From IMG/VR virus record IMGVR_UViG_3300002855_000221, positions 1-57,168 of that record: a DNA stretch of 57,168 bases; one strand, 5' to 3'. The notes beneath the pieces are model-generated. The model saw only the letters and a list, made by a program, of their open reading frames with translations, ran no database searches and was not told the DNA's origin. Origin of the DNA: a virus (taxonomy: Duplodnaviria > Caudoviricetes). Shown piece after piece: positions 2,459 to 55,270 of the stretch. Both the position numbers and the translations under genes were made by a program. How positions within the stretch are numbered: the first letter of the stretch is position 1; each line of letters begins with the position of its first letter.

Positions 2459-3208
2459 TTAAAATAGGGTTAGCTGCATTTGATCAATGCGGCGTTGACC
2501 ACCGGTTGCATATTCAGGATTCTTCTCGATTACAATGTAAGGCCGGTTGCACCGTGCAGCAGCTACTGCAGTCGTGCAGCTTCCGCCGCAATTATCAAGG
2601 ACTGTCTCCCCTTCATTCGTATAAGTCTTTATAAAGTATTCCAATAACGGTACAGGCTTTTGATTTGGGTGAATACGTTCTGGATCGTCATTGTTTACCA
2701 CTGGGAAATAGACCACACTTCGCGGATAACGTTCTGTTGACCCTGCTGGATTTGACCACGGCGTACCCTTTCCATAAACTGTTGATTTGTGGTTGTTCGT
2801 AGCTGCATTCATTGGCTTATGTCCTTGACTCATCTGCGGGTTATAGGTAGGTGTCCTTTTGTAAAACACAAGGAGGTATTCATGCGCCTGCATAGGCATG
2901 ACTGATTTATTCAAGTGGCCTGTTGCTTTGTTTTTCTCCCATACCCAATCATATTTGTATAGTTCGAGATTGCTTGCAGCCAAAACCTTATCGAATGGAG
3001 CTTTTGCAAATAGCATTATTGCCCCGTTATCCTTAATAATCCGTTCGTATTCGGGCCACAAGCTTTCAAAGGGAAGCACGGAATCCCATGGGCTTCTCGT
3101 GGTCCCATATGGCAGATCGCAGAAAATCATATCTACGCTGCCGGTCGGTATTTGTGGGAACACATCGAAGCAGTCAGCATTGATAATTTGATTTAGGAGT
3201 CCTTTCAT
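2459..3208 (-). CDS. DNA adenine/N4-cytosine methyltransferase (beta class)
   Basis: DLPY catalytic motif, HPNQKP, DNCGGS SAM-binding motif. Confidence 0.92.
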   Translation of the reverse strand: MKGLLNQIINADCFDVFPQIPTGSVDMIFCDLPYGTTRSPWDSVLPFESLWPEYERIIKDNGAIMLFAKAPFDKVLAASNLELYKYDWVWEKNKATGHLNKSVMPMQAHEYLLVFYKRTPTYNPQMSQGHKPMNAATNNHKSTVYGKGTPWSNPAGSTERYPRSVVYFPVVNNDDPERIHPNQKPVPLLEYFIKTYTNEGETVLDNCGGSCTTAVAAARCNRPYIVIEKNPEYATGGQRRIDQMQLTLF

Positions 3209-3224
3209 TCCGTCTTATCCCTCC

Positions 3225-16798: not shown

Positions 16799-17061
16799 GA
16801 ATACTTAGCCTCCATTCCATCAAGCTTCATAGTGATTTCTTGCACCCATTTCATGTCTCCAGCTGTTTGCGCCTCAAGAGCCAGGTTCTTTAGCTCGTCC
16901 GTTTCACGGACAAGTCTGAGGTTGTCAATCAGCAGTGGAAGTAGCAGCCTCGTCTCGATTGATCCAACACGTAATTCGCCGCTGCCATGATCGATTATCA
17001 TGAGTACCAGTTCCGCAAGCTTTCGATGTACTGGATGAATGATGACTGCCATTATTCTCAC
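16795..17061 (-). CDS. Hypothetical protein
   Basis: IHPVHRKLAEL; in the early operon. Confidence 0.7.
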   Translation of the reverse strand: MRIMAVIIHPVHRKLAELVLMIIDHGSGELRVGSIETRLLLPLLIDNLRLVRETDELKNLALEAQTAGDMKWVQEITMKLDGMEAKYS

Positions 17062-17339
17062 CTCTCCTCTAAGTTGGCTTGATTTAGTAAATCTCTTAAT
17101 TGGATCAAGCCCTGTAAATTTGTAATACTGATTGATTTTGCTGGGATGTATATCCCTTGTTCTTGATCGTGGAGCTCAGCTTCAAACACAGTTAATGTGC
17201 AGGCAGTACCTCTCTTGATAAGCGATGCAGTTTGATCATCTGTAATCACAACTGATTGAGCTTTCATCCGCTCGACCTCCAATCGGAAATAATATCCAAA
17301 AGATATTGACGAAATATACGACTTTACCGTATAATTCAA
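17058..17339 (-). CDS. Hypothetical protein (start uncertain)
   Basis: ORF after cro; probable true start MKAQS. Confidence 0.55.
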   Translation of the reverse strand: MNYTVKSYISSISFGYYFRLEVERMKAQSVVITDDQTASLIKRGTACTLTVFEAELHDQEQGIYIPAKSISITNLQGLIQLRDLLNQANLEER

Positions 17340-17354
17340 CTTGTAGCCAAATTC

Positions 17355-17591
17355 TTAATTATTAAGAATACTAGGGCATAGCAATTCCTTGGGATTAAGC
17401 TCCAACTCCTCAACCATACACAGCTTCTCAACTTCATCGGCATGTAGCGTTGATGAACCGTCCATCACCCGGTAGAATCTCCCGAGTGGGATACCTGACT
17501 TCTCTGCTGCAACCTTTAACGGTATGCCCTTAGAACGGATATGGTTCCGGATTCGTTGAGACACGGAGGATTCAGTAGATGAATTCAACAT
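17355..17591 (-). CDS. Cro-like HTH regulator
   Basis: IRSKGIPLKVAAEKSGIPLGRFYRV; divergent from cI; RBS GGAGGTG. Confidence 0.82.
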   Translation of the reverse strand: MLNSSTESSVSQRIRNHIRSKGIPLKVAAEKSGIPLGRFYRVMDGSSTLHADEVEKLCMVEELELNPKELLCPSILNN

Positions 17592-17622
17592 GGCTATCAC
17601 CTCCATTCTATTCAATTTCCCA

Positions 17623-17748
17623 ATTCCTAGAATCTAAGAATTTCGTAAACCAAATATACATCCTATTTTCTAAGAATGCAACCCTTATTTTAGGAATATT
17701 TTTATTTTTTTCTGCGTATTTAAGAATAAGTTCTCCGTTTCTAGGAAT
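17623..17748. promoter_or_regulatory. Immunity-region operators
   Basis: Half-site TYTARGAAT at 17633, 17669, 17689, 17719 and 17740; near-palindrome ATTCCTAGAATCTAAGAAT at 17623-17641; related ATTCTTAATTATTAAGAAT at 17351-17369. Confidence 0.7.
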
Positions 17749-17787
17749 TATGATAGTATCTGAGTTGTTAAGGAGAGGTGGATTTAT

Positions 17788-18162
17788 ATGTTACCGATTT
17801 ATGCTAATCGTCTTAAAGAAGCGCGCATTAACAAGAAGTTTTCTCAAGTCCAAGTGAAACAGCATACTGGGATCAATAATAAGACTCTAAGTGGGTATGA
17901 AAACGGGGTAAGTGAACCGGATTATGACACACTCAAGGTCTTGTGTGACCTCTATGAGGTATCAACTGATTGGGTACTTGGAAACACAAACAACCCTAAC
18001 AGCAGCTTGACGGATGCCGAAAGGGATGCGGTAAAAAAGATAAATTTAAGTGACGATTCCTTTTTGAGTTTAGACATGGAAATAGACGGTAGGGAACTAA
18101 CAGATGCACAAAAACAGAAGGTCCTTGCTATGGCTCGTCTGCTTCTTCAACAAGATCACTAA
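17788..18162 (+). CDS. CI-like XRE repressor (no peptidase domain)
   Basis: RLKEAR...TLSGYENGVSEPD...VSTDWVLG. Confidence 0.9.
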   Translation: MLPIYANRLKEARINKKFSQVQVKQHTGINNKTLSGYENGVSEPDYDTLKVLCDLYEVSTDWVLGNTNNPNSSLTDAERDAVKKINLSDDSFLSLDMEIDGRELTDAQKQKVLAMARLLLQQDH

Positions 18163-18339
18163 TTAGCAACTGGATTAAGTTTTGATTTTGTGGCGTATCC
18201 TTTGCAATTGACTTCAAGAAACAAGCAACATCCAAACCACCTGATGAATTCTTCATAAATTTGTTACCCCCATATATTTTTTTATTACAAGCGAATGATG
18301 TGTTTATTCAAATTTTAATTTTATATTTGGAGGATCAAT

Positions 18340-18567
18340 ATGGCACTGCAACTCGGCAGGTGCCTATTGCGCTATTATCGGACTAAGGCTGGCCTTACTC
18401 AGGAATGCCTTGCCGATCGTCTCCGGAATGATTTGGGATTAACGGTGTCATCGACAATGATCAGTCAATATGAGAATGACCATCGGCCCATGTCCCCTCT
18501 CATTATGCGCGGGGTATGCATTATTCTTGGATGTACAGAGGCCGATTTATATGAATGGCCCCATTAG
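18340..18567 (+). CDS. Small XRE HTH regulator
   Basis: GRCLL...GLTQECLAD...ISQYEND...LGCTEADLYEW. Confidence 0.85.
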   Translation: MALQLGRCLLRYYRTKAGLTQECLADRLRNDLGLTVSSTMISQYENDHRPMSPLIMRGVCIILGCTEADLYEWPH

Positions 18568-18770
18568 CGTAATAGGTATGGAGTGAGTAGTTTACTGCTC
18601 CCTGCCGAGGCTGACTTTACAAGCTCGTAAAGTTTTTATTTGTCAACAAATTTGTTTGTTATACATTATTTAACTCCAGATGGGTGATATTGTAAACAAA
18701 AGCTGGGGAATCCGAATTTATTTGTAAAAACATCAAACTTTCTCCACTTCTGAAGTGTTATATATAAATG

Positions 18771-18807
18771 AGCAAAAAAAACGGACCTATCACTCCTGTG
18801 TAGGTCC
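18771..18807 (-). terminator. Rho-independent terminator of the agr-like operon
   Basis: GGACCTA/TAGGTCC stem followed by a U-tract on the minus strand. Confidence 0.7.
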
Positions 18808-18823
18808 TCTTTCATATTTCAAC

Positions 18824-19204
18824 TCAATTTATGATTAATTGCGGATTAAGCATCATAAATTCCTTCTCAAGTTCCGAATACCTCCAATATGCCAGGGTGC
18901 AGTATTTAGAGGTTTTCTTGACTTCATCGCTAAAGTACGCCCTCTTTTGTAAACTATCCATCAAGACAATCTTATCGATGTTAACCGCGATATTCCGATC
19001 AACAATTCGATAACTTTCCCCGCTACTGTTAAGAGTAGTTGCCCAATACTTCAATGTACCTGGTAAGTAAAACTCTTCTCTCTCAGTATGAACAGCTACC
19101 CTTTGAATTGGCTTTCTTGACTCCAGGAATATGATGTCATTTCGGTTCAGATTTACAATTCCTGATTCGCCCTCAATATCCCTTGTCACTGTAAGATATT
19201 GCAT
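18824..19204 (-). CDS. Stand-alone LytTR DNA-binding protein (no receiver domain)
   Basis: DIIFLES...VAVHT...GTL...YRIVDRNIAVNIDKI; only 126 aa. Confidence 0.85.
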   Translation of the reverse strand: MQYLTVTRDIEGESGIVNLNRNDIIFLESRKPIQRVAVHTEREEFYLPGTLKYWATTLNSSGESYRIVDRNIAVNIDKIVLMDSLQKRAYFSDEVKKTSKYCTLAYWRYSELEKEFMMLNPQLIIN

Positions 19205-19225
19205 TGCTGAATCAGCTCCATTTTC

Positions 19226-19351
19226 TTATTTATTTAACAATTCCGCTGGTGGTTCCGGATTGTTAACAAAAATCAGACTTGCTGGGTAAACGGACAGTAC
19301 GGCAAGAGCGGATAATACCGTTGCGAATTTGGAATATACATATGATCTCAT
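19226..19351 (-). CDS. agrD: AgrD-like cyclic lactone autoinducer precursor (41 aa)
   Basis: Hand-translated MRSYVYSKFATVLSALAVLSVYPASLIFVNNPEPPAELLNK; ATGA overlap with agrB; PxxPxxL tail. Confidence 0.85.
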   Translation of the reverse strand: MRSYVYSKFATVLSALAVLSVYPASLIFVNNPEPPAELLNK

Positions 19352-19887
19352 GACTGCTTCTCACCTCCTTTCATGATCTTGTTTAGGATTAAAGTAATAC
19401 ATTGAACAAAGAAAGCTATCGCAACGGAGTTAGAAGTAAGCAATAGATTTAATATAACCAGTAAGAAAGACACCATCTTCAATGCTGGAAAGAACTTCGG
19501 TGGGATAATGGTTTGTTTTTCAATACCGGTAGGTGCATACAACAGAACTAGGATTGCACTGATGATTGTAAGAGTAACGATCCAGAAATGATCCAAGGAA
19601 ATGAACGAAAGCAACGTGGCTGTGGCTGCTGTGATCAATGCGCAGCTTGTACTTGACCTCAAGTGTAAACCGCCGGAAAGTTGTCTTAGGGCAGCAAAGG
19701 ATGATAATAAAATAACTACTTCGCGCGTATTCCCTGTGAACAACGAAACCGTCAATGATAGTCCTACAACTGCAGTAACGTTCAGGATGATAATCAGGAT
19801 ATGATTGAGAACCGCAACAGAGGCAGGATGATCCGGCACCACCGACTTAATATGTGTTGCCATCTTCCAGGCCATGTTCTCTATCAT
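19348..19887 (-). CDS. agrB: AgrB-family peptide-processing membrane protease
   Basis: LRQLSGGLHLRSSTSC with catalytic His/Cys spacing, YAP motif, multiple TM segments; start MIENMAW. Confidence 0.92.
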   Translation of the reverse strand: MIENMAWKMATHIKSVVPDHPASVAVLNHILIIILNVTAVVGLSLTVSLFTGNTREVVILLSSFAALRQLSGGLHLRSSTSCALITAATATLLSFISLDHFWIVTLTIISAILVLLYAPTGIEKQTIIPPKFFPALKMVSFLLVILNLLLTSNSVAIAFFVQCITLILNKIMKGGEKQS

Positions 19888-20471
19888 AAGAAATCCTCCC
19901 GTTCCTTCTGAATTGCGTAATATAAGAAAAGTCCTGATGCCACAGCGAAAAATAATATGTTTATCCATACCTGATGCTGATACAAAGAGATTGTCATCAA
20001 GATGAACGATAATATAATCACGGTGATGACAATGATGCGTTCTCCTTTAAACCTCAGCTTGTCAAAATCGAGAGCAAATCCTATTCCGAACCGGTACAAT
20101 ACATACGACAATGCCATAATTAACACACTTGTGACGATCTGTAGTAATTCTCCTCTAATCGTTGTAAACAAAACCGCTTGGATGGTTCCATAAAGGAAGA
20201 ATCCTATACACGCAACGATGGCTGACCAAATCAGTGAGACTTTAACAACGGTTGTTAACAGAAGGACGTAACAGAGTAGATTAATTAGCGTTGCTATGTA
20301 TCCCAAGTCAACCTCTCTTAAAAAGTAACTCTGAATGCCCATCAATAATGCGATAATGAAAGACTGCCAGATGTACTCAAGTGCGTTCATTCTGAATATC
20401 GCCATCATCAATACAAATGCTGCGTAGACCTCTAATGTTGAGAACAGCATAAACATGACCATATCCCACAT
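19884..20471 (-). CDS. Multi-pass membrane protein, AgrC sensor-like, no kinase domain
   Basis: 195 aa, almost all hydrophobic (about 6-7 TM); ATGA-coupled to agrB; no H-box or ATPase motifs. Confidence 0.7.
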   Translation of the reverse strand: MWDMVMFMLFSTLEVYAAFVLMMAIFRMNALEYIWQSFIIALLMGIQSYFLREVDLGYIATLINLLCYVLLLTTVVKVSLIWSAIVACIGFFLYGTIQAVLFTTIRGELLQIVTSVLIMALSYVLYRFGIGFALDFDKLRFKGERIIVITVIILSFILMTISLYQHQVWINILFFAVASGLFLYYAIQKEREDFL

Positions 20472-20492
20472 CGGCTCTAATCCCCTTAATAA

Positions 20493-20798
20493 TTATTTCT
20501 TGCTGCGCCACTCCTCGAGCTGATCCTTATAATGTTGAATACTTGTCTCAAACCAAAACGGCCGAGTTCCAACCATGAAATCTGGATCAGGAAAAAATCG
20601 AGTCTTTCGGGCATGGTGCATGTTCTTGGGGTCAATTCCGATGGCGTCTGCAACTTCTTTGTTACCCAAGACCCTCGGGAATTTAATCCCTGCAATGATC
20701 TCTCGGGCTTCTTTCAACTGGTTAACAAGTTCTAAAATTTCTAACCCTTTTTCTCCCCCTATCTCTTCTGCCATCAAGCGGTACTTATTCAAGGTCAA
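20493..20798 (-). CDS. AlpA/excisionase-like HTH protein heading the agr operon
   Basis: VLGNKEVADAIGID...FFPDPDFMVGTRPFW. Confidence 0.7.
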   Translation of the reverse strand: MTLNKYRLMAEEIGGEKGLEILELVNQLKEAREIIAGIKFPRVLGNKEVADAIGIDPKNMHHARKTRFFPDPDFMVGTRPFWFETSIQHYKDQLEEWRSKK

Positions 20799-20854
20799 GT
20801 GAAACCATCTCCTCTGCTGTAAATTCCTCGTTTGTTATATATTGGTTGATTGAC

Positions 20855-20906
20855 GTTGTATAAAATATACGACATTGTCATATAAAATACAAGACTTTAT
20901 CGTATA
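20855..20906 (-). promoter_or_regulatory. Sigma-A-like promoter with overlapping repeats for the HTH-agr operon
   Basis: Minus strand TTGTAT-17-TATATT; TATAAAATA at 20859 and 20881; imperfect palindrome GTTGTATA-AAA-TATACGAC. Confidence 0.55.
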
Positions 20907-20966
20907 TAATTCACAAAAAAATAACCGGGAAAACATCCCGGATATTTTGCCAGCCTAACTTCAAGA

Positions 20967-21218
20967 TCATAGACCTTCTAATGTTTCAATCTGACTATTC
21001 GTAAGTTTGTGTCTAAACGCGTTATCTAAATGCATGTATATATCTTGAATCCCGTCCAGGACACCGTTTAATCGTGATATTTCATGCTCAAGGTTGTTCC
21101 TTTCTTTCGGGCTAACTGTTGTATAATCAATTTTCTTTTGAATTCGTTCTTTTTCATCCTCTATTTCATTTTTATATACAATAATCCTTTTCAATTGTTC
21201 AAATAAGATATCACCCAC
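20967..21218 (-). CDS. Hypothetical protein (AT-rich accessory gene)
   Basis: RBS AAGGAG; terminator-like CCGGGA/TCCCGG at about 20915-20947. Confidence 0.65.
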   Translation of the reverse strand: MGDILFEQLKRIIVYKNEIEDEKERIQKKIDYTTVSPKERNNLEHEISRLNGVLDGIQDIYMHLDNAFRHKLTNSQIETLEGL

Positions 21219-21313
21219 ATCAATTACTCCTTTCCTAGAACTAATTATTTTTTGTATTTCAATTCAGTAAGGACTATTGTACCACGGTTGGAAGAGTGTG
21301 GAATCAAATCGCA

Positions 21314-21916
21314 CTATTTTATTCGTTTCAACATCTCATCCACCGGACTCTGGAACACCCTGAACAACCTTCCATCCGTGCGATAATTCCCAGTCCCGGA
21401 CCCGATTATCCAGATATACGGGAACACCTTCTTGGCCGCCGGCTGCCAAGGCTCCTGTTCCCATTCACCGCTAAGGTAATACTGCTCATATCGGTTCATC
21501 TTCTCCTGCATTACTCTGTCTGAAAACTGGCTCCTTTGTATCTCCACGAACCACGGAGCACCCTTCCAGATCGTGAACACGTCCGGCTCAGGTCTTCCCT
21601 TACCTCCCGTCTTGGGCTCCACATTAAACACCCTCGGTTCCTCAACCTTCCGGATCTCTTTATAGAAATTTACGATAGCCAGGAAGTGTCCGATCTTAGC
21701 ACTGTCCTTTTTAATGCCTGGCACAGGGAAGTATATGTACTTCCGGCGATCGGTGGTACATGTAATGATGTCATCTCGACGCAGCCGCTTAAGTACCATG
21801 TTCGCCTGGGTTATCGGATTCTTTACATTGGAGAAATGGAGTTCCGCCACATCATCACGAGTGAGGCAACGGAACCGCTCCAGATCCTTTACAATAGCCA
21901 TGTCACGCGCATTCAA
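21314..21916 (-). CDS. Replication-relaxation (Replic_Relax) family protein
   Basis: RDMAIVKDLERFRCLTRD...HFLAI...PDVF...FVEIQRS...KMNRY. Confidence 0.85.
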   Translation of the reverse strand: MNARDMAIVKDLERFRCLTRDDVAELHFSNVKNPITQANMVLKRLRRDDIITCTTDRRKYIYFPVPGIKKDSAKIGHFLAIVNFYKEIRKVEEPRVFNVEPKTGGKGRPEPDVFTIWKGAPWFVEIQRSQFSDRVMQEKMNRYEQYYLSGEWEQEPWQPAAKKVFPYIWIIGSGTGNYRTDGRLFRVFQSPVDEMLKRIK

Positions 21917-21918
21917 TC

Positions 21919-23133
21919 CTACAACACCCCAATCTCAATGGTGTCATCTTCCTGAGCTTCCTGATCAACAGCCTGAGCCGTTGCCGCCTCCTCTGAGCGC
22001 GTGTATGGCTCCAGGAGTGCCTTTGCCTTGGGAATATCTAAGTATGGCCCTTGAACTGATTTCATGCCATCCAGCTTCAATATCATGCGGCCCTTTTGGC
22101 TCTGCTGGATATCTGCAGCTTCTCCGCTGCCTAGGGTAATACGGCTGTTGATCTCGTCACTATGGCGGAATGCCATCCTTACTGTAAGATTATTCTTGAG
22201 CTTACCGTCCAGGACGTCAGCATCTGGCCGCTGCATCGAGAGGATCAAGAACACACCCAGGGCTCTGCCGATCGCGCTGATCTCCTCGATTCCTTCCATG
22301 AGGTCCTTTTCCTTTTTGAGCAGTGCCACTTCATCAATCGCCAAGACGATGTAGGGAGGCCGATCAGCTACCGGCAGATCCTCAATGTTTGCCAAGCCAG
22401 CTCGGTCCAGCAGATCCCCGCGACGCCTCATCTCTTTCCTGATCTTAAGCACGATCTGGTGCAGCTGAGGAGCTTCAACAACAACCTGCTGGGCGATAGA
22501 TTTGAATATATGGAACTCTGACCGCTTAAGGTCAGCGCAATACAATTCCAGTCTGTCCGCCGCTGTCCGGATTATCGTTGTAAGTATGGACCTCAAGGCA
22601 ACCGACTTCCCACTGCCAGTCTCCCCGGCCACCAATAAATGCGGGTGCTCCGTCATGTCATACACTTCATCCCCTGTCCGGCTCCGTCCGACATAGATAG
22701 GTAGCCTGAGTCCTTGCACGGCCTTTTCCACGGTTTCTAGGTTATAATCAAACCGCTGTACATCCTGACCGTAGATGTTGAGTGTGAACGTCTTAGAGGA
22801 CCCCGTCAGCTCAATGTTGTCGCCAAATGTTTGTTCAAATAGCCATGCTCTCTTACGAACCTCCTGCGGGTCCAAACCATTTGGTAGGATAAACACCACC
22901 TGCACGCAATCATGGTACACCGTGACCCGGCTTACCTGCGGGTAAGCGCGAATCTCCTTCCCCTGTCGAACCTTCCGCTTATAACATATCTCTCCGGCCA
23001 GAAAGAGCTTCCGCATCTTGGCTCTGTACACAGAATCCGCGCTCGATCTATAAACCGTCCACGCACCTCCCAGGCATCCGCACGCTGCCGCTAATTTCAA
23101 GACTGCGAATCCTCCTACTCCGCTAATTACCAT
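21919..23133 (-). CDS. FtsK/SpoIIIE-domain ATPase
   Basis: PHLLVAGETGSGKS, IDEVA, LSMQRPDA. Confidence 0.92.
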   Translation of the reverse strand: MVISGVGGFAVLKLAAACGCLGGAWTVYRSSADSVYRAKMRKLFLAGEICYKRKVRQGKEIRAYPQVSRVTVYHDCVQVVFILPNGLDPQEVRKRAWLFEQTFGDNIELTGSSKTFTLNIYGQDVQRFDYNLETVEKAVQGLRLPIYVGRSRTGDEVYDMTEHPHLLVAGETGSGKSVALRSILTTIIRTAADRLELYCADLKRSEFHIFKSIAQQVVVEAPQLHQIVLKIRKEMRRRGDLLDRAGLANIEDLPVADRPPYIVLAIDEVALLKKEKDLMEGIEEISAIGRALGVFLILSMQRPDADVLDGKLKNNLTVRMAFRHSDEINSRITLGSGEAADIQQSQKGRMILKLDGMKSVQGPYLDIPKAKALLEPYTRSEEAATAQAVDQEAQEDDTIEIGVL

Positions 23134-23266
23134 TCGCTTCGCCTCTTTTCGCTATCGCTCAAAACAAATTCATAATTTCTTTATCCCTCAAGGTTTTTGC
23201 TCGTACTACAATTGCAATGTTACTGCTGCATATACAAACTTACCTGCATAGGTCTCTGCTAATGCA

Positions 23267-23470
23267 TCAAACATGCACTCCAAAGGTGCGGGCAACCATC
23301 TGCAAGCAATCCCACCAGGCATCAAGTGAGATGTATGCACACGCCACATACCCAGCAATCTTGATGTACATTACCTTGCCGCCGTGCCCCATGTTCTCCA
23401 GTACATTGGAACAGAAATGAGATACTACCCCGATCCCGAGGATTTTAAAAATAGCCGTCAGTTCGATCAT
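23267..23470 (-). CDS. SpoIIIAC/AD-like small membrane protein
   Basis: IFKILGIGVV...VLENMG pattern resembles SpoIIIAC. Confidence 0.6.
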   Translation of the reverse strand: MIELTAIFKILGIGVVSHFCSNVLENMGHGGKVMYIKIAGYVACAYISLDAWWDCLQMVARTFGVHV

Positions 23471-23481
23471 GTTATCCCTCC

Positions 23482-23688
23482 TTAGATAAACCCCTCAACC
23501 GCAAAATCTTCCTGCAGTTCCGCTACCTGCTGCCGAGGCCCTGGGAAGCCTCCGTCAATATCTCGCTGGATCAATCGTTTTAGAAAGCCCGACTGATTAG
23601 GCCGCAGCCGCACATGCTCATATTGCTGCAGCTGGTCGGGATCCAGAACGTTAAACGCCACCTGTATAATCCGGATATCCTTAGCCAT
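23482..23688 (-). CDS. Putative ParR-like adaptor / ribbon-helix-helix protein
   Basis: VAFNVLDP...NQSGFLKRLIQRDI; coupled to the parM-like gene. Confidence 0.55.
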   Translation of the reverse strand: MAKDIRIIQVAFNVLDPDQLQQYEHVRLRPNQSGFLKRLIQRDIDGGFPGPRQQVAELQEDFAVEGFI

Positions 23689-24484
23689 AGACCTTCCTCG
23701 CGATCAGATAAAATGCTTTTACATTTGCATATTCTGGGTCACCCTCAATCATCCGAACATCAGGAAAGTAAGCCTTCAGCGCAGCCAGGACATCCCCCGC
23801 ACCACCTCCGCAAAGATAAACTGTGTCATTCGCTTTCCAGCCCCTTGCGAGCGCTCTGAGTGCTATCTGGCGGGCGAAATCTGCTGGCTGCACGGATCGC
23901 AAGGTTTCCATGCCGGTACCGAGCGTGAAGCTTCCTCGGTCATTAAAGCGACGATCGATGAGCGTGCCAAAATTAACCGTACCGCTGCCGACATCGATCA
24001 CGCGAACCAAACCACCACCCGGCACCAGTAATCCGGCAGTTACTCCTTCCGCTGCCACCTCGCAGCGCCGAATGACGATGATCTTTCTCTTGCCGTTTAC
24101 AGTCAGCTCATGCCGGCCACATAGCATTTCTTTGATAGCCGACTTTTCAGCCTCGTGGTGCGTGCTGATCGGCTGGCCGACAATGATCTGATGCTCTATC
24201 CCCTCGCCAAACTGATGTAAAGCCAGTAGCGTCCGCAGGCGTGCATCTGGATGAGCTTTGGTTTCCCCTTTACGACTATCCGCGCATTCGCTCTCATGTA
24301 GTGCCAGCGTGCCAGCGAAGCCACGCTGCCCGTCATATTCCCATTCATAGTCAAACTCGCCATACTGCTGTTTCAGATTCCGCTCCCTATACTCCCCGAT
24401 CAGAGAGGGGAATGCTTGCAGCTTCCTACCGTCATAAAACTTGGTCCTGTAATTTCCCGCATCAATGGCCGATATCATCCGCAT
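23681..24484 (-). CDS. ParM/StbA actin-like ATPase
   Basis: IDAGNYRTK, AEG, IDVGSGT and LCGGGA actin-fold motifs. Confidence 0.9.
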   Translation of the reverse strand: MRMISAIDAGNYRTKFYDGRKLQAFPSLIGEYRERNLKQQYGEFDYEWEYDGQRGFAGTLALHESECADSRKGETKAHPDARLRTLLALHQFGEGIEHQIIVGQPISTHHEAEKSAIKEMLCGRHELTVNGKRKIIVIRRCEVAAEGVTAGLLVPGGGLVRVIDVGSGTVNFGTLIDRRFNDRGSFTLGTGMETLRSVQPADFARQIALRALARGWKANDTVYLCGGGAGDVLAALKAYFPDVRMIEGDPEYANVKAFYLIARKVYG

Positions 24485-24553
24485 CCCGCCTTGTTGTTGA
24501 ACTGGTTACGGTACTGGACTGGCGCCTTAGCCCTTGGTGCCGTATCTGGTTAC

Positions 24554-24581
24554 ATATCTATGCGGTACAGCTTGCCTATGT
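24554..24581 (-). promoter_or_regulatory. Putative sigma-K (mother-cell) promoter of the parM cassette
   Basis: Minus strand ACA-N16-CATAGATAT matches the sigma-K consensus. Confidence 0.45.
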
Positions 24582-24639
24582 TTCATAGTTACATGAATAA
24601 AATTTTCATAGACTGTCCATCCTCTGTAGTAGAAGGGGA

Positions 24640-24870
24640 GTGGGGAATATGTTTGGATTAGGGAAAAAGAGGTCTCGACTCGGGAGATTTTTGGATAAGA
24701 ATGGCATCACCCAGGGCTGGCTAGTGGAGAATGCAAAACTGAATAGGAACACCCTTACGCAGCTTTGCGGGGATGATCACTATGAACCTAGAGCTGAGAC
24801 CGTCCAGAAGATCATTTCAGCTCTTCGTAAACGTGGGTTTGATGTCCGGGGAAGTGACTTTTGGGGATAA
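24640..24870 (+). CDS. XRE HTH regulator
   Basis: FGLGKKRSRLGRFLDKNGITQ...; divergent from parM. Confidence 0.8.
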   Translation: MGNMFGLGKKRSRLGRFLDKNGITQGWLVENAKLNRNTLTQLCGDDHYEPRAETVQKIISALRKRGFDVRGSDFWG

Positions 24871-24921
24871 TTTGGGGATAAAAAACGCCTGACGCATTTA
24901 GCGGCAGGCTTTCTTGTGCTT

Positions 24922-25197
24922 TCAATATTTTGTCCAGTAATCCATGTTTCTCTGTTTGCTTGGAGGTGACTGCTCCATGACTTCCGCTTTGATGATTTGA
25001 ATGTTCTCTGTTGTTGATTTATTCGGCCATATTATATATCCGTGGTCTTCCAAATAACGAAGCCCTTTCAGTAAATCCTGGTAACTCCGTCCGGTCATCA
25101 TCTCTAAACGTCTATAATCAGGCATACGGCTCTTATGTACGGGACTCGGATAATTGATCAGGATCCGGAGTAACTTTCGCTCGCGATCCGGCAGCAT
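24922..25197 (-). CDS. LexA-N-like winged-helix protein
   Basis: RERKLLRIL...MPDYRRLEMMTGRS...LRYLEDHGYI. Confidence 0.65.
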   Translation of the reverse strand: MLPDRERKLLRILINYPSPVHKSRMPDYRRLEMMTGRSYQDLLKGLRYLEDHGYIIWPNKSTTENIQIIKAEVMEQSPPSKQRNMDYWTKY

Positions 25198-26963: not shown

Positions 26964-27623
26964 TTACTTCTTTGTAGTGACCGTGGCGGTCTTGGTCTTA
27001 TTATCCCAGTCTATTTTTGCTTCGAGCGCCTCACCAACAGCTCTCAGAGGTACATAGGTCACGCCATTCTCCAACTTTCCATCTTTGATCTGTTTCCCGT
27101 TTACAATGACATTTACCTTCTCGCTATTATCCACGGTTGAGGCCCCTTTCATTGTGTCGTATTGATACAGGTTGTATGCATCCATGATAGATATTAGCTT
27201 ATCGGCATACTTTGGATCGGTAGCATAACCGGCCTTCTGGATTTCTTGCGCTGCTGTTTTACCATCCACTCCGATAACCTTCTTGTATTTGTTTCGGTCC
27301 CAGCTCACACCATTTAAAATCAATTTGGTATGATCTGCAATGGACTCGCCCCAATTGTTATAAGCGCGGAATTCCGCGCTTACTTTGATATCCTTACCTT
27401 TTACATGCTCCGTTGTTAACATCGTGCAGCTACCGGCTGGCCCTTTGCCTTTTATCCCAAATAAATTGTTACCCTTTTGGGTTAGTCCCGATGTACCCCA
27501 ATTACTTTCAAGTGCAGCCTGGGCAATAGTTAGCGATGTAGGGATAAAGGTATTCTTCATATCTGCCACTGCAAAAGAGGCGATTTTTTGGATGAACGCC
27601 GCCTTACTACTCATTGGGACCAC
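26964..27623 (-). CDS. Endolysin, GH73 glucosaminidase with C-terminal cell-wall domain
   Basis: AQAALESNWG, NNLFGIKG, GYATDPKYA; C-terminal TYVPLRAVGEAL. Confidence 0.92.
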   Translation of the reverse strand: MVPMSSKAAFIQKIASFAVADMKNTFIPTSLTIAQAALESNWGTSGLTQKGNNLFGIKGKGPAGSCTMLTTEHVKGKDIKVSAEFRAYNNWGESIADHTKLILNGVSWDRNKYKKVIGVDGKTAAQEIQKAGYATDPKYADKLISIMDAYNLYQYDTMKGASTVDNSEKVNVIVNGKQIKDGKLENGVTYVPLRAVGEALEAKIDWDNKTKTATVTTKK

Positions 27624-32309: not shown

Positions 32310-35300
32310 CTATGATCCCATAGCTAATTGTTGAGCAGATCGTGTACTTGCTCTCGAAACGTCAGAAGGTGATGTAACAGGGGTATTAAAGTTATTAGTT
32401 ACGCTGATAACTTTACCTTGGATCGGTCCCGAGCTAGATGGTGGAGCGCTACCTCCTGAACTCTTCCCGCCCCCGCCTGAAGGCATGTTAGCCGCTTCGT
32501 TCATAGCAGCCACCGCCATACTTCGCGCGGCATTAATCTGTGCAACCACATTAGCGATCATTCCAGATATTTCATCAATATGCGGCCTAATGCCATCAAC
32601 TAGCTCTTCTCCGAGAGTATGCCCAGCTTGGTTGTAACCATCGCCGAAACTCTCCAACAGCTTTAATATATCTTCTTGTTGTTTGTTGATGATCATCTTC
32701 TCGGCTTCTGCCTGGATGTTCTTGGCGTTTAAGAGCTCGTTATAGTGATTCTGGGTGTCAATCAGTTGCTGATCTAGAGAAGCTTTCTGAGCGTTGTATA
32801 TGGCATTAATATTGGCCTGTTGAGCCTCATACTCTGCAAGCATGATTTCTTTCTTAAGAGCGAGTTGTTCTTTAACCGAGTCAATTTCTTCCTTCTGCTT
32901 GTTTTTCAACTCTTCTTGCTCTGTTTTTAATGCTTCCTTGTGGTCCTCAAGCTGTTCCAGTCTATGGCGTTCAGCTTGTTCAGCCATGACCTTGTTGAGT
33001 TCCTTTTGCAGTTCCACTCGGTTAAATTCATCATGCTCATATTCGATTAGACCTTGAAGTCGGGATATTTTCTTAGCATCCTCTGCATCCAGCTCTTCTC
33101 GCGATTTTTGCTTCTCAGCTTGGTTAAGCAAATCCAATTCTTTTTGGATCGCTGCTATTCTGGCATTATAAGTGCTCTCAATGGCAGCTATTTCTGCATC
33201 TGCAGCACGTTGAGCCGATTCGATCCGAGCATCATGAACTGTCTTGATTGCATCCAGCTGGGATCTCTTCCACTCTTCATTCGCTTGTTGAGCATTTTTG
33301 ATGCGCTCTTCGTCGATTTTCTTCTCTTCCTGGTACTTATTACGGAGGGCCTCTTGAACAGCCTTGGACATCTCATTGATTCTGTTGACCTGCTCTTTTC
33401 TAACCTGTTCGTTATAATCCCGTTCGAGTTTTAAGCGTTCGTTGGTTTGCTTTCGAACAACCTCAGTGATCTCCCGCTCGATCTTCTTCTTCTCATCAGC
33501 TGTATACCGATTATCCGCAAGCACCTTCTTGAGATAATTGTTATTCAGGTAAATCTGGTCGTTAAGCAGCCGGTCCTGAAGTTTATACTGTTCTTCTGCC
33601 GACAACTCTTCACGGGCCAAACGGTCCTCATAGGCAGCTTGTAATTGCTGGGATACATAATCGGTCGCTTCCTTACGGAGTTGCTTTTCTTCTTCGATTT
33701 TCTTTTTGAGCGCTTCCTGCCGACGAATTTCTGCATCGAAGATCATATCATCGATTTGCTTGCGCTCTTCCGCCGAGTCTGCATATTGCTTTTTGATGCG
33801 CTTCAGGCGCTGAATCTCTTGGTCCTCGGATAGCTTACCAAGACGTTTCGACTTGTCCAAATCATCAAGAGCATTTTCCAGGGTTTTGTCGCCAAGAGCC
33901 TTACGAACAGCGTAGATGCGCTCTTCGATTTCCATGCGTTCATCAGAGGTCTTGACGTGTGCTGCCTTGATTTTTTCGAGCATCTTAAGCTCGCTCTCAA
34001 GCGTCAAATCATCCATTTTTTTCTTATGCTCTAGTTGTTTATAAGCCTCATCTAAAGCTTTGTTTTCGTAGGCTTTGGCTTTAGGCGTTTTAGTTTTAGA
34101 TGTTTTCTCTTTTTTACCACCGCCACCACCCGGGATATTAACTGGTGTGATTACAACCGGATCAATTTTAAAATCATCCGGCTTCATATCCAATATTTGT
34201 TGTAAGCTTGCTGCTTCACCGCGTAATCGATCGAGCTCATTATTCATTCGGTTTAGGGCAGCTTCAGCGATTCCACCTTCACCCGCAATCCGAACAATAC
34301 CCTCGGCGATTTTAATAGCCGCTTCTTGTTTTGCAATTGCTGTATCTGTCTCTTGTTTTGCCTCTCGAGCTTTTAATTGGATATTAGCCCATGTGAGGTT
34401 GATATCTTGGTTTTTAGTGGCTATTAAACTCTCAATAGCTTGTACGTTAATACCGGCAGCTGTACTAAGGTGAGGGAACATTTTAGCGAGCTCGTTTTGA
34501 GCTGCCTTGTATTCATCAGAGCCTTTTTTGGCCGTTTTATATGTGGTAACAAGAGCCTGAATGCCATTAACCTCTTGTTTGCGCATTGCTAACTGTTTGG
34601 CAGACTCGTTTACTTCTAACGCTGTTTCCCTTTTTGCATCCTTCACGGCCTTGGTGAGAGTATTCTGAGCGTCACGTAATTGATTCATGGATTTCGCCGT
34701 TAACTTTCCGTTCTCATCGACAAATTCCAATGTGACCCCAAACTCTTTCGCCGTCTTCATAAGCTCTTTCATGTCTACGTCCAGCTCGTCAACTGCTGTA
34801 TCTAACGCAAGGACATTGTTTCCCAGTTGGGCTGAGTTAGTAGCGGATGCGGCATCGATCAGCTTTTGATAAGTATCGATTAGCTGGTCCAGTTTTTCGA
34901 TTTTCTCTTCTGTTGCCTCGATTTCATCCCTTGTAATTCCGTTTTCCTGAATCGTTTGTAAGTCCTGTTGAGCCTGAGCCAACTCTTCGGTAGCAGCTTT
35001 CGCTTCTGCCATGCTATTTTTTAGGCTGAAAAATAATGTTACTGCCCCAGCAATGGCCATCAGTACCAAACCAACAGGATTTGTTGCTAACCACATCAGA
35101 GCAGTTCCCAAGCCCTTAATAACAGGGATCAGCAAACCTATACTTTCAACGAGTTTTCCTACAACAATCAGCAACGGACCCGCTGCTGCGACAATAGCCA
35201 CAAGAGTAAGAACAGACTTCTGTCCAGACGCATCCAAACTTGCAAACCAAGCAGCACCCTTCTCTATGGATTCAAATAACGGTTCTAAAGAATCCAATGC

Positions 35301-54949: not shown

Positions 54950-55270
54950 ATAAACACCTCTCAACTGATTATACCTATTGGTATGTTCGATTGGAGGCGG
55001 TAAGTCTTGTAAATAAATAGGGATACCGAGACCGTGCCTTATAGGTATCTCGATATCCCTCACCCGTATGCCGGTACAATGCCCCAGCAGGCAGATCTTA
55101 TTTAGAACATTTAACCCGCTTGTTCTACCCTTGCGGCTCTACTGTAGGTCTTTATTTGCGAGGGGCTAACTGGCGCCGCTCGTCTTATCGCCTACCACCG
55201 TCAAACAGGTATGTTTGTTGTGTCGGGTGATGTTCTGGAAACCGGAAGGGAGCTTTGCACCACTCCATAT

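What the first reader, a model, noticed from the sequence alone, without database searches (positions are those of the whole stretch)
18824..20906. Prophage-encoded Agr-like cyclic-peptide communication operon next to the lysis-lysogeny switch
Seen: one promoter-to-terminator unit containing an HTH gene, a membrane protein, agrB, agrD and a LytTR gene, with two ATGA overlaps. It ends about 0.7 kb from cI, and AgrB retains its catalytic His and Cys. Known: AgrB cyclises AgrD into a secreted autoinducer. Characterised phage lysis-lysogeny peptide communication (arbitrium) uses linear peptides and RRNPP receptors. Phage agr genes in C. difficile phiCDHM1 include a kinase but no regulator. Inference: a chemically distinct phage quorum-sensing system that counts lysogens or infections and biases the switch. 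The link to the switch rests on adjacency only.
Basis: partly seen in the sequence, partly recalled or inferred. Interest (0 to 1): 0.93.

Follow-up and report, generated by a model that had tools for sequence, protein, structure and literature searches.

The report
Kinase-less Agr peptide signalling module in prophage
A complete prophage carries genes to make a cyclic signalling peptide plus an unusual sensor with no kinase, placed and wired beside the genes that choose between dormancy and killing, so it may be a second chemical language for phage communication.

Summary
On the minus strand, 20798-18824, one unit between two terminators encodes a MerR-like HTH protein (H), a 7-helix membrane protein with no kinase (M), AgrB, AgrD and a LytTR-only protein (L), with two ATGA overlaps. 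The window is a complete siphovirus-type provirus. The M-AgrB-AgrD-L cassette recurs in 47 Paenibacillaceae genome loci, 43 IMG/VR viral loci and Brevibacillus phages Abouo and Davies. AgrD has Ser (79) or Cys (7) at one fixed register and 45 different ring pentamers. The link to the switch is more than adjacency. A small convergent XRE gene follows L in 29 of 35 viral loci. A conserved promoter after L reads antisense into that gene in 39 of 45 distinct intergenic regions. The palindromic operator in the operon promoter recurs in a second promoter just past the cro-like gene, aimed at cI, in 10 of 12 loci, and co-varies in one. XRE-less copies of the cassette also sit among housekeeping genes, so phages probably captured a host system. 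Hargreaves et al. (2014) noted agrB, agrD and kinase-less membrane genes in Abouo and Davies, but not the LytTR gene or this wiring. Function and direction of effect are untested. I call it a new variant of a known kind.

The parts
20911..20941 (-). Intrinsic terminator that ends the upstream 83-aa gene and insulates the operon
   Evidence: stem 20941-20925, 5 G-C pairs, followed by TTATTTTTTT. Sequence read.
20864..20906 (-). Operon promoter P_agr: TTGTAT (20892-20887), 17-bp spacer, TATATT (20869-20864). A palindromic operator sits in the spacer (20866-20884). A degenerate second copy lies 22 bp upstream (20888-20906).
   Evidence: The 22-nt tandem matches at 17/22, and 0 of 1000 shuffles reach that. 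The same promoter-plus-operator geometry appears upstream of H in 16 of 17 loci that have H.
20493..20798 (-). H: 101-aa DNA-binding protein with a MerR/excisionase-type winged HTH; the presumed binder of the palindromic operator
   Evidence: phrog_597 'DNA binding protein', E 1.5e-7. AF2 model pLDDT 82.3. Foldseek finds RacA, BmrR, CarH, BldC, MtaN and RdfS at probability 0.7-0.97 and E 0.13-1. H is present in 17 of 92 cassette loci, and the operator is present only where H is.
19884..20471 (-). M: 195-aa membrane protein with seven helices and no kinase domain; candidate peptide sensor and partner of L
   Evidence: No Pfam hit. 93 cluster representatives at E<=1e-3, all 75-234 aa long, so 0 of 93 are kinase-fused. 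AF2 pLDDT 94.5 with 7 helices. M lies next to AgrB in 45 of 47 genome loci and 42 of 43 viral loci. The ESM Atlas structural neighbours include the N-terminal part of PF14501 kinases, TM 0.64-0.66.
19348..19887 (-). AgrB: membrane peptidase/cyclase for AgrD
   Evidence: PF04647 at 53.1 bits. phrog_10353 at 103 bits over the full length. R68/G73/H75/C82 are invariant in 20 relatives.
19226..19351 (-). AgrD precursor (41 aa). Predicted ring S-L-I-F-V (Ser lactone) followed by the tail NNPEPPAELLNK.
   Evidence: TIGR04223 at 17.7 bits, cut-off 19. 87 of 91 loci have an AgrD-type C-terminus. At the position 10 residues before the conserved Pro, 79 have Ser, 7 have Cys and 1 has Ala. There are 45 distinct pentamers.
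18824..19204 (-). L: 126-aa protein with a LytTR DNA-binding domain only and no receiver domain
   Evidence: PF04397 at 27.7 bits, residues 15-93. L is present after AgrD in 40 of 47 genome loci and 39 of 40 viral loci that have room for it.
18774..18807 (-). Terminator of the operon: hairpin GGACCTA...TAGGTCC followed by a T-run
   Evidence: Read. A hairpin plus T-run occupies the same place in the aligned relatives.
18668..18696 (-). P_x: conserved promoter after the operon terminator, TTTACA-17-TTAAAT, reading antisense towards the XRE gene and cI
   Evidence: Present in 39 of 45 distinct L-XRE intergenic regions, against 2 of 45 on the other strand and a shuffle mean of 1.0 (maximum 4).
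18340..18567 (+). x75: 75-aa XRE-family HTH gene, convergent with the operon; a conserved partner of phage-borne cassettes
   Evidence: phrog_3 and phrog_8 repressor/regulator families. Conserved family alignment. Found within 700 bp after L in 29 of 35 viral loci and 14 of 39 genome loci.
17788..18162 (+). cI-like repressor (124 aa)
   Evidence: HTH_3 at 46.8 bits and HTH_19 at 48.8 bits. NCBIfam RstR-family repressor at 53.7 bits, below its cut-off of 80.
17355..17615 (-). c: cro-like first gene of the early leftward operon (86 aa)
   Evidence: Divergent from cI. Weak phrog_18104 'transcriptional regulator' hit, E 0.0089. Homologues occur in 12 loci, all of them loci with H.
17306..17369 (+). 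Second promoter carrying the same operator: TTGACG-18-TATAAT (17306-17335), operator 17315-17333. It lies in the 88-bp gap after c and reads antisense through c towards cI. A perfect palindrome, ATTCTTAAT-T-ATTAAGAAT (17351-17369), follows it and resembles the repeats between cI and c.
   Evidence: (11 of 12 promoter match). An operator within 60 bp after c is found in 10 of 12 loci that have c, and L059 has one at relaxed stringency.

Best explanation
This is a phage-borne Agr-type quorum-sensing module that lacks a kinase and is wired into the lysis-lysogeny switch of a temperate Paenibacillus-type phage. What the sequence shows: (1) AgrB keeps its catalytic residues. (2) AgrD has a Ser/Cys nucleophile at a fixed register. 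(3) A 7-helix membrane protein (M) is translationally coupled to AgrB. (4) A LytTR-only protein (L) follows. (5) All of these sit in one insulated operon inside the lysogeny region. What I infer, in order. AgrB cleaves AgrD and closes a five-residue ring (S-L-I-F-V, a lactone), and the peptide is released. M senses the peptide and controls L without phosphotransfer, following the logic of LytTR regulatory systems in which a membrane protein holds back a LytTR regulator. Free L then acts at the conserved promoter P_x just after its own gene. P_x transcribes antisense into the convergent XRE gene x75 and on towards cI, which shifts the balance between repressor and lytic transcription. In the subfamily that includes this window, the first gene H (a MerR-like winged helix) binds a palindrome placed between the -35 and -10 boxes of two promoters: the operon's own promoter, and a second promoter just past the cro-like gene that points back through cro towards cI. 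This geometry resembles lambda P_RE (recalled). It would couple expression of the signalling operon to repressor-directed transcription. I cannot tell whether the peptide favours lysogeny or lysis.
For: Operon and domains. AgrB catalytic residues are invariant, with the S. aureus spacing. AgrD: 87 of 91 loci have the AgrD-type C-terminus, with Ser 79 / Cys 7 / Ala 1 at one register and 45 distinct pentamers, the pattern expected of a cyclisation nucleophile and of diversifying pherotypes. A Ser-lactone AIP has precedent: I saw only the title of Ji et al. 2005, in the reference list of PMC12180512. The M-B-D-L order holds in nearly all of 90 related loci. It also holds in phages Abouo and Davies, whose gp47/gp48 'peptidase' is a LytTR domain protein (29.4 and 16.9 bits), located between the integrase and cI. 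M: 0 of 93 homologues carry a kinase. Its confident 7-helix model has as structural neighbours the membrane part of PF14501 (AgrC-type) kinases, TM 0.64-0.66 (a lead only). Links to the switch: a convergent small XRE gene follows L in 29 of 35 viral loci, and it stays next to the cassette even where an integrase separates it from cI (L041, L072, L074, L075, L077, L090). P_x is present in 39 of 45 distinct intergenic regions, against 2 of 45 on the other strand and a shuffle mean of 1.0. GTCGWW repeats lie upstream of P_x, at least one copy in 41 of 45 regions against a shuffle mean of 9.5, and paired copies occur after L but never upstream of the cassette. The operator pattern lies upstream of H in 16 of 17 loci with H, and within 100 bp upstream of M in 0 of 75 loci without H. 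A second copy lies after c in 10 of 12 loci, and in L091 both copies change together to ATAAG...CTTAT. Only 0.47 matches are expected by chance in the window. The H fold is MerR-like. That MerR-family regulators bind inside promoter spacers is my recalled knowledge.
Against: There is no experimental or expression evidence. No binding partner of any DNA motif has been shown. 25 of 39 evaluable genome loci have the cassette without the XRE gene. For the four of these loci that I sampled, flanking genes include housekeeping genes (sucCD, adhE, comM-like), so the module is not intrinsically a phage device. The window itself lacks the GTCGWW repeats upstream of P_x, so a site for L cannot be named here. 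The direct repeats that define LytTR regulatory systems (9 bp, 11-13 bp apart, just upstream of -35) were not detectably enriched upstream of the cassette. M shows no sequence or profile similarity to four Paenibacillus PF14501 kinases. The P_x transcript is inferred from promoter consensus only. The hairpins downstream of it could equally be the terminator of x75. The loci are not independent: several are identical or appear in both collections.
Confidence: 0.6

Rival explanations
1. Lysogenic-conversion cargo. The cassette is a host-type quorum-sensing unit captured by phages. In lysogens it reprograms host behaviour (for example antibiotic or bacteriocin production, or sporulation) and does not feed into the phage's own decision.
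For: The same cassette lies in chromosomal, non-phage contexts (25 of 39 genome loci lack the XRE gene). In four of these loci that I sampled, flanking genes include sucCD, a MarR gene, a ComM-like gene, adhE and a GNAT gene. It is a self-contained unit with its own promoter and terminators, like a moron. In P. polymyxa, AIPs control secondary-metabolite clusters (PMC12180512, abstract and passages).
Against: The phage-borne copies have features the sampled chromosomal copies lack: the convergent x75 gene, P_x with its upstream repeats, and in this subfamily an operator shared with a promoter beside cro. The position within the lysogeny module is conserved in two genera of hosts.
Confidence: 0.2
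2. Two unrelated functions share one transcript. H is an ordinary early or lysogeny regulator of the switch that happens to be co-transcribed. The M-AgrB-AgrD-L genes signal independently, with L acting only on its own operon or on host genes, and M serving peptide export, processing or immunity rather than sensing.
For: H is present in only 17 of 92 cassette loci, so the shared operator is not a general feature of the cassette. M overlaps AgrB translationally, which would also fit a biosynthetic partner. No sequence similarity links M to AgrC-type sensors.
Against: P_x and x75 accompany cassettes without H too. M and L co-occur almost invariably, as expected of a sensor-regulator pair. The structural neighbours of M are the membrane modules of kinases.
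Confidence: 0.15
3. The cassette controls the plasmid-like maintenance or transfer genes next to it (ParM, FtsK/SpoIIIE, replication-relaxation protein) rather than the cI/cro switch.
For: In the window these genes lie directly upstream, at 21314-24484. A related gene set sits on a 62.9-kb circular Paenibacillus plasmid that also carries phage tail and lysis genes.
Against: The replication-relaxation gene accompanies the cassette in only 5 of the 92 cassette loci scanned (L021, L024, L067, L071 and the window), and FtsK and ParM each in only 5 to 7. Neither the operator nor the P_x motif was found beside these genes in the window.
Confidence: 0.04

Closest known systems
agr cassette of Brevibacillus phages Abouo, Davies and Emery (noted by Hargreaves et al. 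2014, PMC3901668)
   Same: Same gene order: membrane protein, AgrB, AgrD, then a roughly 120-aa LytTR-only protein. No kinase. Located in the lysogeny region between the integrase and cI/cro. AgrB is 34-35% identical over more than 90% of its length.
   Different: The proteins are very divergent. M matches only at E 0.012 over 52 residues, and L shows no BLASTP similarity. The HTH gene after L is on the same strand rather than convergent. There is no H gene and no palindromic operator. The LytTR genes are annotated 'peptidase', and the passages I read in the 2014 paper do not mention them.
Canonical Agr system (AgrBDCA of staphylococci)
   Same: AgrB with its catalytic Arg/Gly/His/Cys. AgrD with an amphipathic leader, a five-residue ring and an acidic PxxP-EL tail. 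The output regulator has a LytTR domain.
   Different: There is no AgrC histidine kinase and no receiver domain on the regulator, so no phosphorelay is possible. The nucleophile is mostly Ser (lactone) rather than Cys. The gene order is sensor-B-D-regulator.
LytTR regulatory systems (HdrRM, BrsRM of Streptococcus mutans; Zou et al. 2018, PMC6193735)
   Same: A soluble LytTR-only regulator encoded in one operon with a multi-pass membrane protein. No kinase and no sigma factor (abstract and passages).
   Different: The signals of LytTR regulatory systems are unknown, whereas here a dedicated peptide-signal pair (agrBD) sits between the two genes. The defining 9-bp direct repeats next to the operon's -35 box were not found. 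The order is membrane gene first. M matches no Pfam family, whereas HdrM carries DUF2154 according to the paper.
Arbitrium (AimR-AimP-AimX) of SPbeta-like phages
   Same: A phage-encoded peptide signal in the lysogeny region. A regulated promoter lies immediately downstream of the signal genes, and its transcript (AimX, described as a non-coding RNA in PMC8270828, passages) tips the decision. Many peptide variants exist.
   Different: Arbitrium uses a linear hexapeptide re-imported by Opp and bound by a cytoplasmic RRNPP receptor. Here the peptide is cyclised by AgrB and presumably sensed at the membrane, and the regulator is a LytTR protein. There is no homology between the components.
phiCDHM1 agr3 locus (Clostridioides difficile phage)
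   Same: Phage-borne agrB and agrD.
   Different: phiCDHM1 encodes an AgrC kinase and no regulator (PMC3901668). This module has a regulator and no kinase.

Membership tests
Agr quorum-sensing system (AgrBDCA) | AgrB membrane peptidase with catalytic His and Cys | tested here: met
   PF04647 at 53.1 bits, cut-off 23. R68/G73/H75/C82 are invariant in 20 relatives and spaced as S. aureus R70/G75/H77/C84.
Agr quorum-sensing system (AgrBDCA) | AgrD precursor with a Cys/Ser nucleophile five residues before the cleavage site and a conserved acidic tail | tested here: met
   TIGR04223 at 17.7 bits, just under its cut-off of 19. Family-wide, the fixed register holds Ser 79, Cys 7 and Ala 1 across the 87 loci that have an AgrD-type C-terminus.
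Agr quorum-sensing system (AgrBDCA) | AgrC: membrane sensor fused to an HPK10/GHKL histidine kinase | tested here: not met
   M is 195 aa with no Pfam domain. 0 of 93 homologues are longer than 234 aa. No kinase gene lies within the operon.
Agr quorum-sensing system (AgrBDCA) | AgrA: receiver domain plus LytTR domain | tested here: not met
   L is 126 aa and the LytTR domain spans residues 15-93, which leaves no room for a receiver. Relatives are 111-160 aa.
AgrC-type sensor module (membrane domain only) | Homology of M to the N-terminal membrane domain of PF14501 kinases | tested here: inconclusive
   ESM Atlas structural neighbours are two clusters of PF14501 kinases, TM by query 0.66 and 0.64. 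hmmsearch and hhalign against four Paenibacillus PF14501 kinases found nothing. No solved structure matches.
LytTR regulatory system (LRS) | LytTR-family regulator without a receiver, encoded in one operon with a transmembrane protein | tested here: met
   The pairing is kept in 40 of 47 genome loci and 39 of 40 viral loci.
LytTR regulatory system (LRS) | The membrane protein inhibits the regulator | not testable with these tools
   This needs genetics or biochemistry.
LytTR regulatory system (LRS) | Two 9-bp direct repeats 11-13 bp apart, 4-11 bp upstream of the operon's -35 box (positive autoregulation) | tested here: inconclusive
   No enrichment of repeats with a 20-23-bp period in 84 distinct upstream regions. 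The window's 22-bp tandem overlaps the -35 box, spacer and -10 box, and is better read as two copies of the palindromic operator.
Arbitrium / RRNPP phage communication | Cytoplasmic TPR (RRNPP) receptor and a linear secreted peptide | tested here: not met
   No such domain appears among the operon proteins. The peptide is of AgrD type.
MerR-superfamily winged-helix regulators (for H) | MerR/excisionase-type winged HTH fold | tested here: inconclusive
   Model pLDDT 82.3. The top Foldseek matches are RacA, BmrR, CarH, BldC, MtaN and RdfS at probability 0.7-0.97, but E is 0.13-1 over about 60 residues. Pfam HTH_17 matches only 1 of 16 members, at E 0.02.

The most novel reading that the evidence does not exclude
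Temperate phages of Paenibacillaceae talk to each other with AgrB-made cyclic lactone or thiolactone peptides, of which there are at least 45 ring variants. A 7-helix AgrC-like sensor that has lost its kinase reads the peptide and gates a LytTR-only regulator directly. That regulator fires a promoter which transcribes antisense into the XRE/cI lysogeny genes. This would be an arbitrium analogue built from entirely different parts. It would also be the first LytTR regulatory system with an identified ligand.
Probability: 0.4. Interest if true: 0.9.

Novelty: new variant of a known kind. Interest (0 to 1): 0.8.

Why it matters
Peptide communication that sets phage lysis-lysogeny decisions is so far characterised for arbitrium, which uses a linear peptide and an RRNPP receptor. 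A second class, chemically and mechanistically unrelated, would show that such communication evolved more than once. It would also supply many orthogonal peptide-receptor pairs. Separately, LytTR regulatory systems are widespread but their signals are unknown (PMC6193735). A version with its own signal-synthesis genes makes that question directly testable. The predictions are concrete: a predicted ring sequence, three mapped promoters, one operator, and cultured relatives (Abouo, Davies) in which to test them.

Tried and rejected
DNA similarity of 17001-25000 to the phage collection found nothing. In the plasmid collection only the FtsK/Rep genes matched. tblastn of M against phages found nothing.

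I first read the 22-bp tandem upstream of the operon as LytTR direct repeats. I dropped that reading when relatives showed a palindrome inside the promoter spacer. A search for direct repeats with a 20-23-bp period upstream of the cassette showed no enrichment.

M has no significant match among solved structures, by sequence (best E 0.03 to CorA) or by fold (best E 0.48). A profile comparison with AgrC-type kinases was negative.

Complex prediction for M with L returned 'no answer' (score 0.26, mark 0.32). That is neither support nor evidence against binding. There was no Rfam match in 17000-21300. The putative P_x leader folds with z = -2.8, but this cannot separate a P_x RNA from the x75 terminator on the other strand. 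No sequencing run was listed for 17001-21300, and no RNA holder was listed, so expression could not be examined and read laying was not used.

Literature. Searches turned up no paper describing a LytTR-only or kinase-less agr module in phages. No paper in the library holds both 'LytTR regulatory system' and 'AgrB'. Subscription journals and supplementary files were not seen. Figure S3 and the tables of PMC3901668, and table S3 of PMC12180512, may bear on what was already noted.

I considered whether H is the phage excisionase (weak Xis_Gifsy_1 hit, E 0.0089). The operators inside two promoter spacers fit a transcription factor better, but an excisionase role is not excluded.
Full report
THE ELEMENT

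The window is a single IMG/VR provirus record of 57,168 bases rated 100% complete. It is a temperate siphovirus-type genome. Its genes include:
- a serine integrase (55516-57168);
- a large terminase (44862-46652);
- a 1482-aa ORF in the tail region (32310-36758), whose size suggests a tape-measure protein (listed, not scanned against any family library);
- an endolysin (26964-27623);
- a DnaB-like helicase, a replication initiator and RecT in the leftward early operon.

Between the lysis genes and the immunity region lie a ParM-like partition gene, an FtsK/SpoIIIE gene and a replication-relaxation gene. The only DNA-level relative in the annotated collections is a 62.9-kb circular Paenibacillus plasmid that also carries phage tail and lysis genes. 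AgrB relatives are all from Paenibacillus or Cohnella, so the host is most likely a Paenibacillus.

On the minus strand there is one unit bounded by a terminator at 20941-20925 and a hairpin plus T-run at about 18807-18774. It encodes H (20798-20493), M (20471-19884), AgrB (19887-19348), AgrD (19351-19226) and L (19204-18824). The M/AgrB and AgrB/AgrD junctions are ATGA overlaps.

- AgrB scores 53.1 bits on Pfam. In an alignment of 20 relatives R68, G73, H75 and C82 are invariant, spaced exactly as the S. aureus residues R70, G75, H77 and C84 that are needed for proteolysis (passages of PMC10196373).
- AgrD is just under the TIGR04223 cut-off (17.7 against 19 bits), but the family evidence below is stronger than that score.
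- L is a LytTR domain and nothing else (27.7 bits, residues 15-93 of 126).
- M has no Pfam family. It models confidently as seven helices (pLDDT 94.5).
- H has no significant Pfam hit. Its model (pLDDT 82.3) resembles MerR/excisionase-type winged helices: RacA, BmrR, CarH, BldC, MtaN and RdfS, at Foldseek probability 0.7-0.97 but E 0.13-1 over about 60 residues.

THE CASSETTE IS A CONSERVED FAMILY

An AgrB alignment retrieved 47 loci in Paenibacillus and Cohnella genomes and 43 loci in IMG/VR viral contigs. Some loci are identical or occur in both sets, so they are not all independent; there are 85 distinct AgrB sequences. I scanned the ORFs of these loci with profiles built here.
- M lies next to AgrB in 45 of 47 genome loci and 42 of 43 viral loci.
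- L follows in 40 of 47 genome loci and 39 of 40 viral loci that have enough sequence.
- H is present in only 17 of 92 loci (the 90 loci plus Abouo, Davies and the window).

tblastn against the phage collection found AgrB only in Brevibacillus phages Abouo and Davies (4 records). There the order is integrase, membrane protein(s), AgrB, AgrD, a 'peptidase', an HTH gene, then cI and cro. The 'peptidase' is in fact a LytTR domain protein (29.4 bits in Abouo, 16.9 bits in Davies). PHROGs holds this AgrB family as 'unknown function' (phrog_10353, 103 bits).

THE PEPTIDE

An AgrD-type C-terminus follows AgrB in 87 of 91 loci. At the position ten residues before a conserved Pro, the residue is Ser in 79 loci, Cys in 7 and Ala in 1; the Ala case is an apparent one-residue shift. 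A Ser/Cys exchange at one fixed register is what a cyclisation nucleophile would show. The five residues starting there give 45 different pentamers, while the tail (xxP-x-x-P-x-E-L-L) is conserved.

For the window the predicted ring is S-L-I-F-V with the tail NNPEPPAELLNK. The length of the exocyclic N-terminal part cannot be predicted. Ser-lactone AIPs are known in Staphylococcus intermedius; I saw only the title of Ji et al. 2005, in a reference list.

THE SENSING SIDE HAS NO KINASE

An exhaustive HMMER search of 1.8 billion representatives found 93 relatives of M at E<=1e-3. All are 75-234 aa long, so none is fused to a kinase. The operon contains no kinase gene, and L has no room for a receiver domain.

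The pairing of a LytTR-only regulator with a co-operonic membrane protein is the definition of a LytTR regulatory system (Zou et al. 2018, PMC6193735, abstract and passages). In those systems the membrane protein inhibits the regulator and the signal is unknown.

Is M a former AgrC sensor? The ESM Atlas lists, among the nearest predicted structures, two clusters of PF14501 (AgrC-type GHKL) kinases of 422 and 432 aa, aligned over 164 and 191 residues with TM by query 0.66 and 0.64. That is a lead, not a test. hmmsearch and hhalign against four Paenibacillus PF14501 kinases gave nothing, and no solved structure matches. The direct repeats that mark LRS operon promoters were not found enriched upstream of the cassette.

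LINK TO THE SWITCH, 1: SYNTENY

In the window the operon converges on a 75-aa XRE gene (x75, 18340-18567), which follows the cI-like gene (17788-18162). The cro-like gene c (17615-17355) diverges from cI.

A homologue of x75, convergent and within 700 bp of L, is present in 29 of 35 evaluable viral loci and 14 of 39 genome loci. A larger XRE protein on the same strand within 4.5 kb is present in 18 of 27 viral loci and 12 of 38 genome loci. Where an integrase lies between x75 and cI, x75 stays with the cassette (L041, L072, L074, L075, L077, L090).

The 25 genome loci without x75 are flanked by large, varied genes. In four loci that I sampled these include sucC/sucD, a MarR gene, a ComM-like gene, adhE, a GNAT acetyltransferase and a hybrid kinase. 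So the cassette also exists as an ordinary chromosomal system, and phages probably captured it.

LINK TO THE SWITCH, 2: A CONSERVED PROMOTER AFTER L

The L-x75 intergenic region is 188-463 bp long in the 45 distinct sequences and is conserved in layout. Reading from L it contains:
- the operon terminator;
- GTCGWW repeats in most loci;
- an AATTC...GAATT-type inverted repeat;
- a sigma-A-type promoter on the cassette strand;
- two hairpins next to the x75 stop codon.

A relaxed promoter pattern (TT[TG][AC]C[AT], 16-18 nt, [TAC]WWAWT) is present in 39 of 45 regions. It is present in 2 of 45 on the opposite strand, and in shuffles the mean is 1.0 and the maximum 4. In the window it is TTTACA-17-TTAAAT at 18696-18668, so transcription would run antisense into x75 and on towards cI.

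GTCGWW occurs at least once in 41 of 45 regions (shuffle mean 9.5, maximum 17) and at least twice in 27 of 45. Paired copies were found after L but never upstream of the cassette. The window itself lacks GTCGWW, so I cannot name a site for L here.

The arrangement, signal genes followed by a regulated promoter whose transcript acts on the decision, recalls aimR-aimP-aimX (PMC8270828, passages). No conserved ORF follows P_x and no Rfam family matches.

LINK TO THE SWITCH, 3: A SHARED OPERATOR

Upstream of H the promoter is TTGTAT-17-TATATT (20892-20864). A palindrome, TATATGAC-AAT-GTCGTATA, fills the spacer and overlaps the -10 box, and a degenerate copy lies 22 bp upstream.

The 17-nt pattern ATANGN7CNTAT occurs 60 times in 1.54 Mb of loci. 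It lies within 100 bp upstream of H in 16 of 17 loci that have H (L028 lacks it). It lies within 100 bp upstream of M in 0 of the 75 loci without H.

A second copy lies within 60 bp after the stop codon of c in 10 of the 12 loci that have c. L059 has one with two arm mismatches, and L073 has none. In all of these the second copy sits in the spacer of a promoter (TTGAC[GT] or TTGCGG, then TATACT or TATAAT) that points back through c towards cI.

In the window this promoter is TTGACG-18-TATAAT at 17306-17335, the best promoter match in the 9-kb scan (11 of 12). It lies in the 88-bp gap between c and the next early gene, whose ATG at 17266 has a GGAGG nine bases upstream. In L091 both copies carry ATAAG...CTTAT instead of ATACG...CGTAT. 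That is co-variation between two sites in one genome.

The operator goes with H rather than with c: L037, L046, L055 and L077 have H and the operator but no c. The repeats between cI and c are of a different kind (TAAGAAT-type). One perfect palindrome of that kind (17351-17369) lies just downstream of the second promoter.

I infer that H binds the palindrome and so couples the signalling operon to a repressor-directed promoter. That promoter has the geometry of lambda P_RE (recalled). An operator within a 17-18-bp spacer suggests repression, but MerR-type activation is not excluded.

WHAT IS KNOWN

Hargreaves et al. [quoted passage not shown] The passages I read list three Pseudomonas phages as the ones with LytTR genes, not these phages.

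A 2025 review (PMC11945551, passages) still states that phage agr sets lack a response regulator. The Brevibacillus phage paper (PMC4909266, passages) only lists the AgrB family. P. polymyxa AIP work (PMC12180512 and PMC13700820, passages) concerns chromosomal loci with agrE or agrCA.

My searches turned up no description of the LytTR-only partner, of P_x, of x75 or of the shared operator. The library omits most subscription journals, and supplements were closed.

VERDICT

The finding is real, and I could find only a partial description of it in print. I rate the chance that it is a functional peptide-signalling module as high. I rate the chance that it feeds into the phage's lysis-lysogeny decision at about 0.6, because the evidence is conserved synteny, a conserved promoter and a co-varying operator, with no experiment. 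The main rival is a host-directed conversion function (0.2). The sign of the effect, the binding site of L in this phage and the role of M remain open.

Noticed in passing
window 21314-24484 (-): ParM-like partition gene (phrog_691, E 1e-42), FtsK/SpoIIIE gene and replication-relaxation gene (phrog_2190 'replication initiation', E 2e-37) sit between the lysis genes and the agr operon, in a phage that also has a serine integrase. A related FtsK plus Rep pair lies on a 62.9-kb circular Paenibacillus plasmid that carries phage tail and lysis genes. The phage may be able to persist as a plasmid.
   Followed up: partly
window 17616-17787 and 17351-17369: The cI-c intergenic region holds several TAAGAAT / TAGGAAT-type repeats. 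A perfect palindrome of the same kind, ATTCTTAAT-T-ATTAAGAAT, overlaps the stop codon of c just downstream of the 17306 promoter. This may be a distal operator for cI or Cro.
   Followed up: partly
L022:10168-10698 (-): In one chromosomal copy of the cassette, the gene next to L is a GNAT acetyltransferase (PF13302 at 118 bits). This recalls agrE, the AIP N-acetyltransferase described beside the P. polymyxa agr locus in PMC12180512.
   Followed up: no
L004:4604-6008 and L051:8295-11640: Phage Davies has two tandem M paralogues upstream of AgrB. Genome locus L051 has two M-AgrB units in tandem, and the first AgrB is split into two ORFs.
   Followed up: no
L003:6651-7019 and L004:6654-7019: The genes annotated 'peptidase' (gp47 of Abouo, gp48 of Davies) are LytTR domain proteins on Pfam (29.4 and 16.9 bits). 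The public annotation appears wrong.
   Followed up: yes
L072:10583-11047, L092:10569-11030, L047:10066-10452: Some loci carry a second LytTR-only gene, either beyond x75 or directly after the first one.
   Followed up: no
window 2459-5153 (-) and 54092-55063 (-): Two DNA methyltransferase genes lie side by side in the early region. A DNA-ligase-like ORF (phrog_114, E 4e-31) lies beside the integrase and overlaps a 291-aa ORF on the other strand.
   Followed up: no
L018:9687-10742 and L030:9859-10989: In two chromosomal loci without L, a 351-376-aa ORF follows AgrD on the same strand. I did not identify it.
   Followed up: no
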